The position numbers and the translations under genes were made by a program. Shown here piece by piece: positions 1,271-64,000 of a DNA stretch of 64,000 nucleotides. The DNA is taken from assembly GCF_036971445.1 (NCBI RefSeq), contig NC_091469.1:397296001-397360000 (forward strand). The letters run 5' to 3'. Within the stretch, counting starts at the first letter, position 1. Every line of letters begins with the position of its first letter. This stretch comes from Narcine bancroftii. Its lineage: Eukaryota. A model generated the notes under the pieces. It did no database searches and was not told where the DNA came from. It saw only the letters and a list, made by a program, of their open reading frames with translations.

Positions 1271-1635
1271 CAGTGATCCTCAACCTTTTTATTTTCACTC
1301 ACATACCACTTTAAGTAATCCCTATGCCGTCGGTGCTCTGAGATTAGTAAGGGATTGCTTATGGGTGGAAAGAAAAAGTTTGAAAACCACTGTTTTAATC
1401 GTACCTCATTGACTCATTATGTGCATCGTTTCATAACTCCAAAGGAAATGGACCAATGACATTTTTTCTCAAGCAAAATATTTCAGTAACAATTGGGTCT
1501 AGAGCAGTGATTCTCAACCTACCCTTCCCACTCACATATCACCTTAAGCAACCCCTTACTAATCACAGAGAACCAATGGCATAGGGATTACTTAAAGTGG
1601 TGTGTGAGTGGAAAGAAAAAGTTGGAGAACCACTG
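1271..1635. mobile_element. Non-autonomous hAT (Charlie-like) MITE
   Basis: Termini CAGTGATCCTCAACC...GTTGGAGAACCACTG; perfect 8-bp TSD CTCTAAAA at 1263-1270 and 1636-1643; halves 1271-1392 and 1505-1635 are inverted copies of each other. Confidence 0.9.
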
Positions 1636-2055
1636 CTCTAAAAGGCAAGGATGGCAAAAGAAAATAGAAACAAGCAAGGAAAATTGAACAAAAAGGTTAG
1701 GTAAGGTAATGGGGACTACAGGGTTAAATAATCAAGGAAAATAATTTTAAAAATCTACTTATGTAAATCAAAGAAAATCACCAAACGCACAGCAAATTGA
1801 AAGATAATGTTGGAGAAATATTAAGTAGAAATTGCCTCAGCAAGCCTAAAATTGCTTCCAAATTTTAGAAGAAGAAATTTAAAAGATGTAACAACATTTG
1901 AGAATGGATATAGATAATTGATAATCTAATTAGATTTTGAAAATGTTAAACACATTGGCATTGATTAATTAAAAGAGACAGTAGAAACACTATAATTATA
2001 CACACATAAAATAATTAGAAGTGCCAGAGGCCAGTAACAGTGATGGTGATTCTAT

Positions 2056-3023
2056 CTTTGCAGACGATGCCGCTTTAGATGCCCATTCACCGCTTGACGT
2101 CCTGTTTTGCGGAAACTGCCAAAATGTTTGGCCTGGAAGTCAGCCTGAAGAAAACTGAGGTCCTCCATCAGCCAGCTCCCCACCATGACTACCAGCACCC
2201 CCCACATCTCCATCGGGCACACAAAACTCAAAACAGTCAACCAGTTTACCTATCTCGGCTGCACCATTTCATCAGATGCAAGGATCGACAACGAGATAGA
2301 CAACAGACTCGCCAAGGCAAATAGCGCCTTTGGAAGACTACACAAAAGAGTCTGGAAAAACAACCAACTGAAAAACCTCACAAAGATAAGCGTATACAGA
2401 GCCATTGTCATACCCACACTCCTGTTCGGCTCCGAATCATGGGTCCTCTACCGGCATCACCTACGGCTCCTAGAACACTTCCACCAGCGTTGTCTCCGCT
2501 CCATCCTCAACATTCATTGGAGCGCCTTCATCCCTAACGTCGAAGTACTCGAGATGGCAGAGGCCGACAGCATCGAGTCCACGCTGCTGAAGATCCAGCT
2601 GCGCTGGGTGGGTCACGTCTCCAGAATGGAGGACCATCGCCTTCCCAAGATCGTGTTATATGGCGAGCTCTCCACTGGCCACCGTGACAGAAGTGCACCA
2701 AAGAAGAGGTACAAGGACTGCCTAAAGAAATCTCTTGGTGCCTGCCGCATTGACCCCCGCCAGTGGGCTGATATCGCCTCAAATCGTGCATCTTGGCGCC
2801 TCACAGTTCGGCGGGCAGCAACCTCCTTTGAAGAAGACCGCAGAGCCCACCTCACTGACAAAAGACAAAGGAGGAAAAACCCAACACCCAACCCCAACCA
2901 ACCAATTTTCCCCTGCAACCGTGTCTGCCTGTCCTGCATCGGACTTGTCAGCCACAAATGAGCCTGCAGCTGACGTGGACATTTACCCCCTCCGTAAATC
3001 TTCGTCCGCGAAGCCAAGCCAAA
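2056..3023 (+). mobile_element. 5'-truncated RTE-clade LINE (RT C-terminus plus zinc-finger tail)
   Basis: ORF 2185-2961 (FTYLG, RLAKANSAFGRL, QLRWVGHVSRM, GELSTG); FADD motif near 2056; 3' end CTTCGTCCGCGAAGCCAAGCCAAA; 8-bp TSD GATTCTAT at 2048-2055 and 3024-3031. Confidence 0.93.
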
Positions 3024-3852
3024 GATTCTATATTGAAACAGAAAGATCAAACAAGTGTAGTAAAATATAAATAAGTGACTTAATGTGAATTGTAAGACAG
3101 AAATTTAATCTTTACTCAAAGATGCATTAAAGGTATTAGAATATAAATTCATAAAGAAGGGAACTGGGTGTGGATTTCAAATCAATACGCAACTAATATT
3201 TAATTATTTGAACAAATAGCAGAAAGAATTGCCAACGATAATGAATGGATGTTGTGGGGAGGGAGGAGGGTTAGCATCCAGGATCTAAGCTGCTTGTTCA
3301 CCAAAGAAATTAACAGATGTGTCAGAATTCCCTTGAAGGAAACCATGCTTATTTTGGCCTCTCATCATGCGTTTTTATATAGCCCAAAACCTAAATAATA
3401 GACTCTAGTTGTTCACTCGTTAGGCTGACTGGCTGATAATTTCCAGCCTTTTGAAATATTAATTATGTATCAACAGATATACAGAGCACATAATAATAGA
3501 CTTTTTTTAATATGGAAAGTTGATTAATTATGTTATAGCTATAATACTTTGTAATATAAAAAGAAATGGAGACAAACAAACCAAAATCCAAGGTGATGTG
3601 ACTGGGATTTGTACCAAAATCCAATTTTAAAAATGGTATGCCCCTGTTGTTGTGTGCAACTCTCTCAATGCTGAGTTAATGATTTCAATAGCTCACATAC
3701 AGCTGAACATATTCACCATATTATGGAGAAATAGTTCATGCAATGTTCTGTAGTCTTTTGTATTCTTAGCAACACAGGGATAACATAAATGAGGACACTT
3801 TGTACTTAGCGACCAATACAACATGCTAAGTGCAAATAGCTGGTTTTATATA

Positions 3853-5006
3853 ATTCCCACAGGAGGTTAGGAAAAAAGGTGGAGGCATTAGGTATAAATA
3901 AGGAGGTAGTGAAATGGATTCAGCAATGGTTGGATGGGAGGTGTCAGAGAGTAGTGGTAGAAAATTGTTTGTCCAATTGGAGGCCGGTGACTAGTGGAGT
4001 TCCTCAGGGATCGGTCCTGGGTCCACTATTGTTTGTTATATATATTAACGATCTGGAAGTAGGGGTGGAGAATTGGATAAGCAAGTTTGTGGATGATACA
4101 AAGATTGGTGGTGTTGTGGACAATGAGGAAGATTACCGTAGATTAAAAGGTGATTTAGGAAGGCTGGAGGTGTGGGCTGAGAAATGGCTGATGGAAATTA
4201 ATACAGATAAGTGTGAGGTGTTACATTTTGGAAAGGCAAATCTAAATAGGTCATATGCATTAAATGGTAGGCTATTGAGGGATTTAGGAGTGATGGTAAA
4301 TAGTACCCTCAAGGCTGATACTCAGGTAGATGGTGTGGTGAAGAAGGCATTTGGAATGTTGGCCTTCATAAATCGGAGTATTGAATTCAAGAGTAGGGAG
4401 GTTATGATGAAATTGTACAAGGCATTGGTGGGGCCAAATTTGGAGTACTGTGTACAATTTTGGTCACCAAATTATAGGAAAGATATAAACAAAATAGAGA
4501 GAGTGCAGAGAAGGTTCACGAGAATGTTGACAGAATTTCAAGGTTTGAGTTACAGGGAAAGGTTGTGCAGACTAGGGCTTTTTTCTCTGGAGCGTAGAAG
4601 ATTGAGGGGGGACTTGATAGAGGTGTTTAAGATTTTAAAATGGACAGACAGAGTAAATGTGGATAAGCTTTTTCAATTAAGAGTGGGGGAGATTCAAACT
4701 AAAGGGCATGGTTTAAGATTAAAGGGGGAAAATTATAAGGGAACATGAGGGGAAATTTCTTTACGCAAAGGGTGGTAGGGATGTAGAATGAGTTTCCGGC
4801 AGACGTAGTTGAGGCGGGATCATTGGTTACAATTAAGGATAGACTGGATAGTTACATGGAGAGGAGAGGACTGGAGGGGTATGGACCGGGTGCTGGTCAG
4901 TGGGACTAGGAGGGTGGGAATTTGTTACGGCATGGACTAGTAGGGCCGAACTAGCCTGTTCTGTGCTGTAAGTGGTTATATGGTTATATGGTTATATGGT
5001 TATATG
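3853..5006 (+). mobile_element. 5'-truncated CR1 LINE
   Basis: ORF 3879-4748 (VTSGVPQGSVLGP, KFVDDTKIGG, LEYCVQFWSP, SLERRRLRGDLIE); 3' tail of 8-nt TGGTTATA repeats at about 4973-5006. Confidence 0.95.
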
Positions 5007-6864
5007 ACCTGAATGGCAGAAGATGAACTACATTAACTTTGGTCAGTTTTAACAAACTCCTCATTTCTCTTTTCACAGATTCTGCCCAAATATTTTCAGT
5101 ATTCAGAATTCCAGCAACTGCAATGTTTTGCGCATCATTTTTTCAGTAACTTTTCTCTCCAGTGTTTCCATTAACCTTTTTCTATTGGTATTGTTTTCAT
5201 CAGATCATTTGTGATCAACAGACTTCACCAGGCCCTCTCAGCTAGCACAACAATTATACATGCCATTCTATCTCTCTTGGTCACCACTCTATCACAGATT
5301 CTCCTTTGTTCTTTCTTCACCACAACCTTACTGCAACTTAAAAATTGTTTGAATTATAAATTCTCAATGCTCTAATGAAGGTCCTTTGACCAAAATTAAC
5401 TGCTTCTTTCTCCACTGAGCTGTTCAGTACTGACAATAATTTTTCTTTTTAATTGTATCTATCTGCAAGGGCATTTGCATTTCTGCATGCATACATAACC
5501 ATTTTCATGTTCTCAGGATAGCCTTAATGATAAGACGTTACAAACTTAACAGGAGCAGAAATAGTCTATTCAGCTCATTGAATCTTCCCCACCATTTAAT
5601 CATGACCCAATTCAAAATAATTAACAATTGAAGCACTGTAAGATGCCTTCATGTTCACATAAATTGGTCTATTTCTGGTTTTTTATTCTTTCCAAGTTCC
5701 TGTGTACCATGCTTTGAGCCATTCAATATATAAAGGACACTGACCTGGGGAGTTTCTGCGGCATTGTGTTTTTACATTCATTTAATGCCTTGGGTTTTCA
5801 CTTGAATTGGATACCAAAATAAGTATCTTTCAGACTGCAAGATTTTTCTGGACATGGGGGCAGGGGAATCAACAATTTGTAGAAATCTCTGCCAAAAGAA
5901 CAAACAAACTGAGGACCCACTTTTTGTCTGAATGGCGGCATTGTAGAAAGCTCAAAAAATTGAATCAAATGTTGGCAGATATTAACAGAATATTGGAAGG
6001 AGACAGGTTGCATGCTGGATCTCAAGGCTGAGTTTTACTAGTGGCTGTCAAATTGTCACCATCTTCAACTTCTTTGTCTGCAATCCTTCCAGAGCTGTAT
6101 TGGAAGCATATGTGGGATCTCCCAGTTGGCCACAGACAACTGTAGGAACAGGTGTTGATGCCCATTTTCTAGGATAGCCAATTATACCAATTTGGCCCCT
6201 TGCAGGTGCTTCGGTTTGTAGCTCTGACTGGCTTCCCATGGGTGCTGTGTGTTTTACACAATGCCTTTATATTGTGAAGCTCAAATTAATTTGTGTGTAT
6301 TCTTATCACACTCATTCAACCTAATTGTTGGGACACTCCAAAAAAAGCAACTGCATTAACTGTGCTCCTGCTTTCAGGGACTACCAACAAGTACATATAT
6401 TCCATGTCCCCATTTTCTGGGATTGGCTTTATACCCAACTACCAGTTGGCTCCTGCTGGTGTTCATACTGTTTTTTACCCATTGTCCCAGTCTGGAGTCC
6501 AAAGGGTTAAATTGGCACCAACGTACTCATCGTATAAAATTTTGTATCTGATGCCTGCTCTCATGAACCCAGAGGACCCATTAATCCAGCAGCAATAGAT
6601 ATACACCAAGACAAATGGTTACTTAAACAGAAGTTGCTTTTAATTATCTTTAAACATGAAAACAGAATCAAACTTTAAATTATCTCGATTGACTTACTTA
6701 ATCTAACTTAACCCCTTTCTAATTCTAAGTGCACATGTGTGTAATGTGTGTGTAAGTTCAAAAAAGTTCTTTAGTTCACAGTCCAATCTCTCTTCTCATT
6801 CCTCCAAGTTCACTGGTTGCAGGCAATTCTTATAATGTGCACAGAATTTAACATTTATAAAGTT

Positions 6865-60329: not shown

Positions 60330-62960
60330 GGTCTACATTTCCCCATATCTGAAATTCCATTAACCAAACATTTCTATTAACCCATTTTTTTTTTTCAGTG
60401 CCAACATCACAAGTTGAAAAAATGTATCACCCAATTTTCCCATGTGTGACTCTGGTACTCTGTTGGCACCATTTTGAATCTAATAGTGCTCTCGTGTATT
60501 GAGATACAGTTGCAATGGCAAAAAGGTTTGCGAATAGCACTGTCGATATCAGTGAAAAGAAAAGGAGGATGCGTTTATATTTGTCTATAAAACAGAAAGT
60601 CAAGCTGCTAGTGAAATTGGACAGTGGTGAAAATGTGACATGTCTTACAGAAGAGTATGGTATTGGAACGACTGCAATTTGTGACCTGAAGAAACAGAAG
60701 AATAAATTGTTGAAGTTTTTCCTAAGAGTGATGAAAAGAAATTAATGAAAGATAGAAAAACACTGCTGTAAAGGTAAAAATGAAGAACTCTATTGTGTAT
60801 TGATGGAGTGGATCCAATAGTATCACAGTGAACACATGCCACTTAATGGCTTGCTGATCATGAAACAAGCAAAACTCCATCATAATGATCTGAAATTTGA
60901 ATGGAAAGGTAAATATTCAGCAGGCTGGTTGAGTAAATTTAAGAAAAGGCACGGCATTAAATTGTTAAAGATTAGTGGCAAAAAAGCATCTGCTGATCGT
61001 GGAGCAGTGGAGAAATTCATTGACGAGTTTGCGAAGATCATCGCTGATGAAAATCTGACATCAGAACAAGTCTATAATGCTGATGAAACATCACTGCTTT
61101 GTCGTTATTGCCCCAGAAGAAGACTGGCTACAGCTGATGAGAAAGCCCATACAGGAATTAAGAATGCCAAGTACAGAATAACTGTGCTGGGATGTACTAA
61201 TGCAGCAGGCAAGCATAAGTGTAAACTTGCTGTGATAGGCAAAGCTTGTGTCCTCATTGTTTTAAAGGAGGGAATTTCTTACCAGTCCATTATTATGCAA
61301 ACAGACAGGCATGGGTCACCAGGGACATCTTTTCTGATTGGTTTAACAAACATTTTGTGCCAGTGGGTCGTGCTCACTGCAGGGGAGCTAGATTGGATAC
61401 TAACTGCAAGGTGTTTTTTTTTTCAATTTATGATGCTGCCAATGCTTGGAACAAAGTGACTCAAGACACAATCTCTGACCTGCAACTATGTTCCTTAATG
61501 GTGATGATTTGGAAGGATTTCCATGGGCAAGTGAGGAAAAAAAAATCTTGTGTGACCTCCTTACATACAATATGCAAAAAATAAACATTCAGAGTCCATC
61601 AGTCAGCTGGAAGAAGAAGATATTGAAGAAGTTTTATAACATCGATAATGAGGCTCCAGTTGTTCATTCTATTACATGTTTGTAGTTCACTTTAAATCGA
61701 ATGAGACTGTTACCTTAAGAGAACAAATCAAGCTGCAAGTTTGGGAGTTTGACTGTGAGCTGGCAGGCTGAGGACAGCATGTACTAAATTGGACACATCT
61801 GAAGAGAGAGGAAGTGCAGATGCAGAGATTATGTGACCAATAGATTAAAGATAGTACTGAGTTTGCTCTGGGGCCATTTTAAGGAACCACTACTTGAGGA
61901 AGCATCTTTTGAAGGGATGCTGTGCTGAAGTGGTCTTGTGTAATAATAGACAATCTGTCTGATTTCCCCATGTTATCGGGGAATGAGTGTGGCCATTTTA
62001 AGGAGTCAATACTTGGAGAAGCATCCTTTGAATGGTTACTGTGCTGAATGCAGCCTCGTGTGATAATAGACATTTGTCTGATTTCTCAGTGTTATAGGGG
62101 AATTCTGGGACCAAAAGGTAGAGGTCATTTTGATCGGCTGACCCATGGAAAGGGTTCTACAAGCAGAGAAATACTGCGCTTGGGTTGCGACCATTGTGAG
62201 GGTCACATGGAACGGCTGACCCACAAAAGGGTTTCTGGAAGCTTTGTGAAGATCACTTGCTTGATATCTCCTATGCTAAAGAAGAGGGGAGTTTTGGTCG
62301 CCACTCATCTGAAAAGGACATTGGTCTGGAAGCACCTCGACAAGGATTTCATAAGTTAATAAACATTCTGTCACTTGGTCACTCCCACTTACTTTGTGAT
62401 CATTTCTGCACCCATCTAAAGCCTGTGTGTCATATCCATCTAAAGCCTGCATATCACATTGATTCAAGACCCACGTGTCAACATTGGATGTTCTGAGACT
62501 GAACTGCCTCTCCAGAATTAGGCCTGAGTTGTAGTGGCATAGGCAAATAAGTAATTTACATATAGTTGGGAGTTAAGTATAGATAAGTTTAAATAAGTGT
62601 AGGTAAATTAGATGAGGTGTTATATTATTGTTAATTGTTGAAATATTACTTTAAACATAACACTGTCTGGCCTCATTTATATTGCTGCTGACTGGTACAT
62701 AGCAATTCACTGACCGACGGTGAAATAGCTGAAATTGTTCTGCATCAAGGTGAGCACATGTTGACACTGCATAAAAATTGCCCATAGACGACATGGTGAA
62801 AATGTTGATGGGCTTATTGATGCACAAGAGCAGTGAGCATTCAGAACTGAACAAGAAATCATGTCAGTGCATAAAATCAAAAAGAGAGAACTGCTGACAA
62901 AAGCCATTGTTAATCAGGCAGACGACACTGGAGGAAATATTTGAAAAAGCTGTCGAGGTG
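60330..62960 (+). mobile_element. Tigger/pogo (Zombi/jerky-like) DNA transposon, defective, split by an LTR
   Basis: CENP-B-type HTH (ORF 60515-60745); GWLSKFKKRHGI...VYNADETSL...RITVLGCTNAAG (ORF 60836-61459); coding sequence resumes at 62705. Confidence 0.88.
61670..62704 (+). mobile_element. Solo LTR-like insertion (~1 kb)
   Basis: Interrupts the transposase; 4-bp TSD ATTC at 61666-61669 and 62705-62708; termini TATTACA...TAGCA (decayed TG...CA). Confidence 0.7.
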
Positions 62961-63079: not shown

Positions 63080-64000
63080 TGATACAAGTATTTGTTGATA
63101 TTAGATATTAGAACTGTCTGTATTTATGTACTGTATGGATTAGCCCGCCCCCTACACCTGTGACTCCTCCCCTCAGAATCCCCATGAAAGCTGTTACGCA
63201 CAAACTCCTCCCTCTGTACCTGACTTGGAACCGGGCCAGCAACATGTGAGATGTGTTGATGTCTTATGGTGATTAAAGCCTATTAATCACAACTCTCAGT
63301 CTAATGTGGTTGATCAATTTAATCACCATAATTTTTGTGCCATAGTCAAGGCAATAGGGAGGGAATAAACTAGACACTGACCCTAAAGATCTGGAGGCTT
63401 CCTTCAAAGTTGATCAATGACAACCCCTTCATGAGACACAACGTGTAGAGTGAGGAATATAAACAAGACCACTCAGGTCAGCCATCATGTGTTATCAGAT
63501 GATCGAGCACTGCAATACTTACTCAGCCACAATGGAACTCCTGTAAAGAGCATATAGGACTCTGACGAATGTCATCTATGCTAGGGACCTTCTGGGCAGT
63601 TGTAGACAACTGCCTGCTGAGTTCGTGGATGAATACATGTGGGTCCTGTGGGAGCTGGAGTGAACCTGCAACTGCAGAGATGTCTCTGCTGCTGTCCACT
63701 TAGAGGAACTGATACATGATGCATGTGTGGCTGGATACAAGTCTGATCACATCAGACGGACACTCCTAAAAAAGGGTGATCGGAGCCTGCAGAAAGTTGT
63801 TGACCTGGCAAAAACGCTTGAGACAGCACAGCTGCATCTGGAAGTTTTCTCCTCAGGAAACATGGCCGCCATGTGGGAGCCCTGTTGGAATGTGTGGCCC
63901 CAGGTCATGCCACCACCATCAAGTACCCAAAGGGCTACTTCCGCAGCCATGCTAAAAGGTGCCCATCCTGAAATGCCACATGTTCCACCTGCGGAAAGAA
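63080..64000 (+). mobile_element. Gypsy 5' LTR (ends 63316) plus decayed gag, running off the window
   Basis: NVIYARDLL, TCNCRDVSAAVH.EELIHDA.VAG.KSDHIRRTLL; same gag type as 33288 and 47831; LTR start uncertain. Confidence 0.8.

What the first reader, a model, noticed from the sequence alone, without database searches (positions are those of the whole stretch)
63264..63331. Gypsy family with no tRNA PBS: post-LTR sequence is a perfect 14-nt complement of the LTR poly(A)-signal segment
Seen: the LTR ends ...GATCA (63316) and is followed not by TGG but by A-TTTAATCACCATAA (63318-63331), the exact reverse complement of TTATGGTGATTAAA (63264-63277), which contains ATTAAA. Established: most LTR elements prime reverse transcription from a tRNA PBS starting TGG, whereas Tf1/sushi-group elements self-prime by pairing the PBS with the transcript's own 5' end. 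Inference: this gag type, which I do not recognise as Tf1/sushi, uses tRNA-independent self-priming anchored on the poly(A) signal. The same duplex can form only at the 5' LTR, so it could also mask 5' polyadenylation. I cannot tell whether this has been described.
Basis: partly seen in the sequence, partly recalled or inferred. Interest (0 to 1): 0.85.

Follow-up and report, generated by a model that had tools for sequence, protein, structure and literature searches.

The report
Self-priming Gypsy retrotransposon, long internal primer
This old jumping gene and its relatives carry a primer site that pairs with their own end-repeat instead of a tRNA, and mis-copied insertions left in the genome suggest the group likely starts copying itself from a roughly 50-80-base piece cut from the front of its own RNA, a variant of a trick proven only in the yeast element Tf1.

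Summary
The 14-nt complement is real (63264-63277 / 63318-63331). It is the primer site of a decayed Gypsy element whose 3' LTR lies 7.6 kb on. The pairing is kept in the family, with one compensatory swap, and in 12 related families. RT places them in one long-branched clade without chromodomain, apart from sushi-like chromoviruses.

The genome also holds a young sister family with 111 integrated mis-copies in which the LTR end runs through the primer site into the reverse complement of the LTR leader. Most mis-copies whose two ends could be checked carry 5-bp target duplications. Their breakpoints put the end of strong-stop DNA at the arm's 3' end (median 193; arm ends 192) and the end of the primer copy near the predicted transcription start (137-146). 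The window's family has 4 such copies.

Best reading: the RNA is cut after the arm, and the whole leader, not an 11-nt 5' piece as in Tf1, primes. The nuclease and the RNA ends are inferred. Poly(A) masking is untested and not universal (hexamer in the arm in 8 of 14 families). The scan noted this clade before on two other genomes; those notes show no by-product mapping.

The parts
63093..63316 (+). 5' LTR of a decayed Gypsy element. The start is approximate (first ~20 nt decayed); about 11 nt are missing before the terminal CA.
   Evidence: 183 of 210 aligned nt identical to the 3' LTR 7.6 kb downstream; alignment with 30 copies
63183..63190 (+). TATA-like box (predicted)
   Evidence: About 31 nt upstream of an initiator-like site; same spacing in the young sister family; motif reading is recalled knowledge
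63213..63219 (+). Initiator-like site; predicted transcription start near 63215 and predicted 5' end of the primer
   Evidence: Motif inference here. In the sister family primer-copy ends pile up at the equivalent site. Not mapped directly in this family.
63264..63277 (+). Self-primer arm in R; its 3' end is the predicted priming end; contains ATTAAA
   Evidence: by-products L264, L265, L266, L268 of this family join exactly at the arm's 3' end
63277..63280 (+). Predicted cleavage site between 63277 and 63278 (AAA^GCC)
   Evidence: Strong-stop-like segments end at median position 193 in the sister family, whose arm ends at 192; at 195 in L264, whose arm ends at 195
63282..63314 (+). Predicted inner R/U5 hairpin (63282-63291 with 63305-63314) inside the primer loop
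   Evidence: Predicted folds only; different in the sister family
63317..63331 (+). One-base spacer (A) and 14-nt primer-binding site complementary to the arm
63342..64000 (+). Broken gag remnant (start and frame broken); the element continues beyond the window with a LINE insertion, broken pol, polypurine tract and 3' LTR

Best explanation
This is the primer site of a chromodomain-less Gypsy retrotransposon clade whose post-LTR sequence pairs with its own LTR, and which likely primes reverse transcription with its own RNA leader, predicted to be cut off right after the paired arm. Steps: (1) transcription starts about 40-50 nt upstream of the arm (inferred from motifs and by-product ends); (2) the arm pairs with the site one base past the LTR (complementarity shown, pairing predicted); (3) the RNA is cut at the arm's 3' end (inferred), most likely by the element's RNase H as in Tf1 (by analogy only); (4) the whole leader, 52-55 nt in the young family and about 63-65 nt in the window's family, is extended across the spacer and U5; (5) minus strong-stop DNA therefore ends just after the arm, which would leave only a short R for the first jump; (6) the primer is often not removed, so plus-strand synthesis copies it, and mis-jumps give integrated fold-back and chimeric copies (the copies are shown, their route is inferred).
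For: Complementarity at the same register in 12 related families with different arm sequences (exact 9-17 nt, 0-3 of 1000 shuffles in 17 of 18 loci; the 18th was mis-cut and re-read). Three TGG controls give 4-7 nt. Young sister family: 111 genome hits of LTR end + primer site + reverse complement of the leader, control 0, against 764 normal junctions and 0 plain U5-U5 inverted joins. Of 101 hits in 97 loci: 29 are 433-bp-type fold-back minis; in 50 the U5 segment stops at median 193 (43 within 179-212, 1 within 131-150); in 21 the leader copy stops early, 9 of them at 137-146, where the initiator predicts 141; 1 fits neither. Exact 5-bp target duplications in 22 of 29, 22 of 24 and 11 of 13 checkable copies, so these are integrase products, not assembly artefacts. 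Four such copies in the window's family and one in a distant relative, L111, RT 51% identical, no TSD seen. Best complement to 28 tRNA genes is 5-7 nt.
Against: No RNA end, cleavage or priming was observed. Fold-back minis could form from any plus-strand end that carries the primer-site sequence. Leader copies ending near the start could come from annealing to a second, uncut RNA, which would map the start without proving a long primer. 19 of 50 U5 segments run 1-14 nt into the arm and 5 run further; 6 of 21 leader copies run well past the predicted start (positions 14-131). Some breakpoints are repeats of one event (L234, L263, L211/L212, L169/L179, four at a GATC palindrome), so distinct events are fewer. 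In the window's own family no copy maps the primer's 5' end. The tRNA test covers only 14 anticodon types.
Confidence: 0.75

Rival explanations
1. Plain Tf1-type self-priming: the RNA starts at the first base of the arm and the primer is about 14 nt; longer copies in the by-products come from later fold-back onto LTR DNA.
For: Duplex length is near 13-15 nt in most families, as a start-bounded primer would give; fold-back onto DNA clearly occurs (29 minis run to LTR position 1).
Against: Early stops pile up at 137-146, about 40 nt upstream of the arm, at a CCAAT/TATA/initiator-predicted start (9 of 21; about 1e-6 if uniform). No TATA-like box was seen 30 nt upstream of the arm in either family in this genome.
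Confidence: 0.1
2. A host RNA (tRNA fragment or other) primes, and the inverted repeat serves RNA structure or masks the 5' poly(A) signal; the by-products are DNA fold-backs made possible by the repeat.
For: The arm overlaps a canonical hexamer in 8 of 14 families; the tRNA screen was partial (28 genes).
Against: The site differs between families yet always matches its own LTR. U5 segments stop at the arm end, not at the predicted start (1 of 50 near it), which an uncut template would not give.
Confidence: 0.07
3. Self-priming by the arm of the 3' R copy (the RNA's 3' end trimmed to the arm) or by a cut leader from the second packaged RNA in trans.
For: Five by-products copy past the LTR start into the polypurine tract (L234, L242, L257, L259, L263), as a 3'-derived primer could give.
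Against: The 5' template would then be intact and strong-stop DNA would reach the start; it stops at the arm end. Trans priming in which both RNAs are cut is not excluded.
Confidence: 0.08

Closest known systems
Tf1/Tf2/Tj1 and the Tf1/sushi group of chromoviruses
   Same: Gypsy LTR element; primer site just after the 5' LTR complementary to its own R region; a cut is needed to make the primer; primer-site sequence is copied into cDNA ends (passages of PMC7175516, PMC10085805, PMC4600332, PMC11042837).
   Different: [quoted passage not shown] Here the arm is predicted to lie 40-50 nt inside R, often over the poly(A) hexamer, the primer is predicted to exceed 50 nt, no chromodomain or SH3_Tf2-1 domain is found, and RT is 31-36% identical to fish chromoviruses on a separate branch.
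Plant Copia TAR lineage (Houba, Osr-1) and Tcn1 clade
   Same: Self-priming predicted from LTR/primer-site complementarity (passages of PMC6317226).
   Different: TAR is Copia and Tcn1 is a chromovirus; this is a non-chromovirus Gypsy clade with relatives in rays, sharks, coral, insects and a crab.
Troyka / Kuafuorterviruses
   Same: Long-branched animal LTR lineage once filed under Gypsy (PMC12440569 abstract and first part; PMC11673190 first part and passages).
   Different: Troyka has CG..CG ends and 3-bp TSDs; this clade has TG..CA ends and 5-bp TSDs.

Membership tests
Ty3/Gypsy (Metaviridae) | LTRs TG..CA, PPT, 4-6 bp TSD | tested here: met
   Young sister family: 240-bp LTRs, 5-bp TSD in 20 of 20 (read). 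The window copy has LTRs and a PPT; no TSD was recognisable.
Ty3/Gypsy (Metaviridae) | Domain order protease-RT-RNase H-integrase | tested here: met
   5 of 5 intact clade proteins; the nearest solved RT is Ty3.
Tf1/sushi chromoviruses | Chromodomain (and SH3_Tf2-1) at the integrase C-terminus | tested here: not met
   No hit in 5 of 5 intact proteins at E<=0.01; neither domain is listed for the 84 relatives.
Tf1/sushi chromoviruses | RT groups with chromoviruses | tested here: not met
   41 clade rows on one branch (SH-aLRT 100, length 1.42), 16 fish sushi-like rows on another (100); quick tree, few outgroups, no fungal Tf1 row, so a sister relation is not excluded.
Tf1/sushi chromoviruses | Primer site complementary to own LTR | tested here: met
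Tf1/sushi chromoviruses | Self-primer is the first ~11 nt of the RNA | tested here: inconclusive
   By-product ends and motifs put the start about 40 nt upstream of the arm; no direct RNA mapping.
Tf1/sushi chromoviruses | Three-duplex 'pretzel' structure | tested here: inconclusive
   Folds give the central duplex and an inner hairpin that differs between the two families.
Tf1/sushi chromoviruses | RNase H of RT cuts the RNA duplex | not testable with these tools
   An RNase H domain is present; activity needs an assay.
tRNA-primed Gypsy | Site starts TGG or complements a tRNA | tested here: not met
   Starts A-TTT; best complement 5-7 nt among 28 tRNA genes of 14 anticodon types; partial set.
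Troyka | CG..CG ends and 3-bp TSD | tested here: not met
Named animal Gypsy clades (MolGy1-16, Cigr-1, Tor, Tag, Repbase groups) | RT groups with the reference elements | not testable with these tools
   No reference sequences on hand; passages of PMC6238403 and PMC2871265 name such clades and hold no 'primer' text. This clade may already bear one of these names.

The most novel reading that the evidence does not exclude
A widespread animal Gypsy clade evolved tRNA-free priming independently of Tf1/sushi: it cuts its RNA internally right after the poly(A)-signal region, primes with the whole capped leader of more than 50 nt, jumps on a very short R, and so spawns integrated palindromic minis that look like DNA-transposon MITEs. 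These fossils map the primer's ends from genome sequence alone, and the same duplex doubles as a 5' polyadenylation switch in many families.
Probability: 0.4. Interest if true: 0.82.

Novelty: new variant of a known kind. Interest (0 to 1): 0.68.

Why it matters
Self-priming is proven only for fission-yeast Tf1 and predicted for its chromovirus kin and one plant Copia lineage. A separate animal clade that does it with a long internal primer would show the trick arose again or was reworked, and would be free of the host tRNA supply and of silencing by tRNA fragments at the primer site (recalled background). The integrated by-products give a sequence-only readout of primer ends and strong-stop ends, usable in any genome with a young family. 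They also show that an LTR retrotransposon can make TIR-bearing, TSD-flanked minis that annotation could mistake for DNA transposons.

Tried and rejected
RNA evidence: no holder on record as RNA was listed. Four contig sets whose RNA status is a guess were laid on the young family and showed no start or end peaks; contigs cannot show them. Two contigs with a loose end matching the leader's reverse complement gave the lead for but are explained by the genomic by-products. Two contigs with an A-rich tail behind LTR position 203 (agreement 0.65) are too weak to map the poly(A) site.

The primer-site survey rests on metagenome and MAG contigs whose hosts are unknown. Of 94 related loci, 66 were screened for LTR pairs and 18 clade loci (12 families) were usable. 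For L051, L054 and L085 the LTR end was placed by eye because the 3' LTR is cut by the contig end. The careful tree did not finish; the quick tree is used. A search for SH3_Tf2-1 elements in the genome gave mostly decayed non-sushi elements; one sushi-like copy (L277) served to find comparators. L267 was a false hit (a normal copy). L099 has an unrelated internal inversion.

Literature: ten full-text searches showed no description of this clade's priming or of such by-products; only listings were seen for most hits. The primary Tf1 papers (PMC1369541, PMC231564, PMC109269, PMC1563812) were not held. Repbase Reports and most subscription journals are not searched. I have an unverified recollection that Repbase annotates some animal Gypsy families as self-priming (the recalled name 'Selfy' gave 0 papers). 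No supplements were read; those of PMC6238403 may name the clade.

Full report
Observation. The two 14-mers are exact reverse complements at the stated coordinates, with one A between the LTR's CA and the second arm. The window lies in a 3.3-Gb genome whose Gypsy relatives are named from rays and sharks. The element continues past the window: broken gag, a LINE insertion of about 3.7 kb, broken pol, a polypurine tract and a 3' LTR; 183 of 210 aligned LTR bases are identical. This copy lacks about 11 nt just inside the LTR's 3' end; other copies and its own 3' LTR have them.

Family. Among the 30 best-matching 5' LTRs the duplex averages 12.9 of 14 Watson-Crick pairs. One position is T-A in 14 copies and A-T in 14, with 2 discordant decayed copies. 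This counts as one event, and self-priming itself would copy arm changes into the site.

Clade. An RT frame of the family found 84 relatives. Five intact ones have protease-RT-RNase H-integrase and no chromodomain. A quick ML tree of 64 rows puts the window's family, a young sister family and the relatives on one long branch (SH-aLRT 100), apart from 16 fish sushi-like elements and 7 other Gypsy rows. The tree cannot say whether priming arose independently. Of 94 related loci, 66 were screened for LTR pairs and 18 loci in 12 families were usable. All have a post-LTR sequence complementary to their own LTR: 9-17 exact bases, 0-3 of 1000 shuffles in 17 loci, with L056 re-read. The match usually starts one base past the LTR (two in L063 and L064, three in the mutated L057). 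Three TGG elements give 4-7 nt. The arm holds a canonical poly(A) hexamer in 6 of the 12 families and in both families of this genome; L053 and L054 have a hexamer downstream of a non-canonical arm.

Young sister family. The genome holds at least 150 RT-identical copies. Twenty fetched have 240-bp LTRs 99.2-100% alike and 5-bp TSDs. The arm is LTR 179-192 and the primer site follows one A. A CCAAT-like, a TATA-like (108-115) and an initiator-like site (139-145) predict a start at 141 (motifs recalled; sequence). The window's family has the same layout, with the start about 50 nt before the arm.

Fossils of reverse transcription. A pattern of LTR end, primer site and the reverse complement of the bases upstream of the arm occurs 111 times, control 0. 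Normal junctions occur 764 times and plain U5-U5 inverted joins 0 times. The tool listed 100 of the 111 places; 97 loci around them gave 101 hits. Class 1 (29 hits): a whole LTR, A, then the reverse complement from 192 back to the LTR start; 22 have exact TSDs, and a few run on into the PPT or other sequence. Class 2 (50): read on the other strand, U3-R to the arm end, T, reversed U5, then mostly a jump into the internal region. The U5 piece stops at median 193, 43 within 179-212 and 1 within 131-150; TSD in 22 of 24 with both ends in view. Class 3 (21): a whole LTR, then a leader copy that stops at 14, 80, 103, 118, 119, 131, 137, 138, 138, 140, 140, 141, 142, 143, 146, 149, 151, 155, 158, 163 and 164; TSD in 11 of 13. 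One hit fits none. Several breakpoints repeat one event. The window's family has two class 2 copies (stops at 195, where its arm ends, and about 206) and two class 1 copies, against 95 normal junctions. A distant relative, L111, shows the class 2 form; its reversed U5 runs 8 nt into the arm, over a match to RT sequence.

Mechanism. Class 2 says that minus strong-stop DNA usually ends at the base after the arm, not at the RNA start, so the template is likely cut there. A cut there gives the 3' end that sits on the primer site. Class 3 says that sequence contiguous with the arm is copied up to about 138-141 and seldom further, which fits an unremoved leader primer of 52-55 nt, though annealing to a second uncut RNA would look the same. 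A cut at 192/193 would leave only the stretch up to the poly(A) site for the first jump, which may explain why mis-copies are about 13% of exact-pattern hits. The nuclease is assigned to RNase H by analogy with Tf1 only. Masking of the 5' poly(A) signal is plausible where the hexamer lies in the arm, but it is untested.

Known context. Tf1 pairs its first 11 bases with the primer site and RNase H cuts between bases 11 and 12 (PMC7175516, passages). Tf1/sushi elements are chromoviruses with the self-primer at the RNA's 5' end (PMC10085805, PMC4600332, passages). Primer-site sequence is copied into Tf1 cDNA ends (PMC11042837, passages). Self-priming is also predicted for Tcn1 and Copia TAR (PMC6317226, passages). 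Passages of PMC3601003, PMC6934838, PMC4402516, PMC6238403, PMC2871265, PMC7472051 and PMC12859917, and the first parts of PMC12440569 and PMC11673190, gave no description of this clade's priming. Ten searches found none, but Repbase and subscription papers are outside the library, so prior annotation is quite possible. Two earlier notes of this scan describe the same complementarity on other genomes; they are not independent support, and the lines shown do not mention by-products or primer length.

Verdict. It works like Tf1 but is not a member of the Tf1/sushi group by the tests made. It is a new variant of a known mechanism, with unusually direct genomic support and no RNA or bench evidence.

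Noticed in passing
G000, e.g. L145-L164: A very young sister family: at least 150 RT-identical copies, many with long open frames, LTR pairs 99.2-100% identical, 764 exact 5' junctions.
   Followed up: yes
G000, e.g. L167, L168, L170, L180, L181: 433-bp palindromic minis with two U3 ends and 5-bp TSDs; they look like MITEs but appear to be reverse-transcription by-products, and arise in more than one LTR subfamily.
   Followed up: partly
L145-L164, base after the 14-nt primer site: This base varies (G 11, A 8, T 1 of 20) in otherwise near-identical copies; it may mark the plus-strand jump point.
   Followed up: no
L234, L242, L257, L259, L263: By-products whose reversed copy runs past the LTR start into the polypurine tract and internal sequence; not explained by the simplest model.
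   Followed up: partly
L188, L232, L243, L249: Small (266-bp in L232 and L243) or tandem products that turn round at a GATC palindrome in U5, as if two strong-stop DNAs had annealed end to end.
   Followed up: partly
L063: Divergent clade member with a two-base spacer and an arm ending GAA, with no hexamer: a different register of the same design.
   Followed up: no
L132-L136, L138-L141, L143: Contigs filed in bacterial MAGs (Ekhidna, Rubritalea and others) carry Gypsy elements, several with LTR pairs: likely eukaryotic host contamination.
   Followed up: no
L031 ~1560-5265 (just beyond the window): An L1-like LINE on the minus strand is inserted in the element's protease region.
   Followed up: no
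window 61000-61460: Looks like a decayed Tigger/pogo-type transposase on the plus strand (recalled motif, not tested).
   Followed up: no
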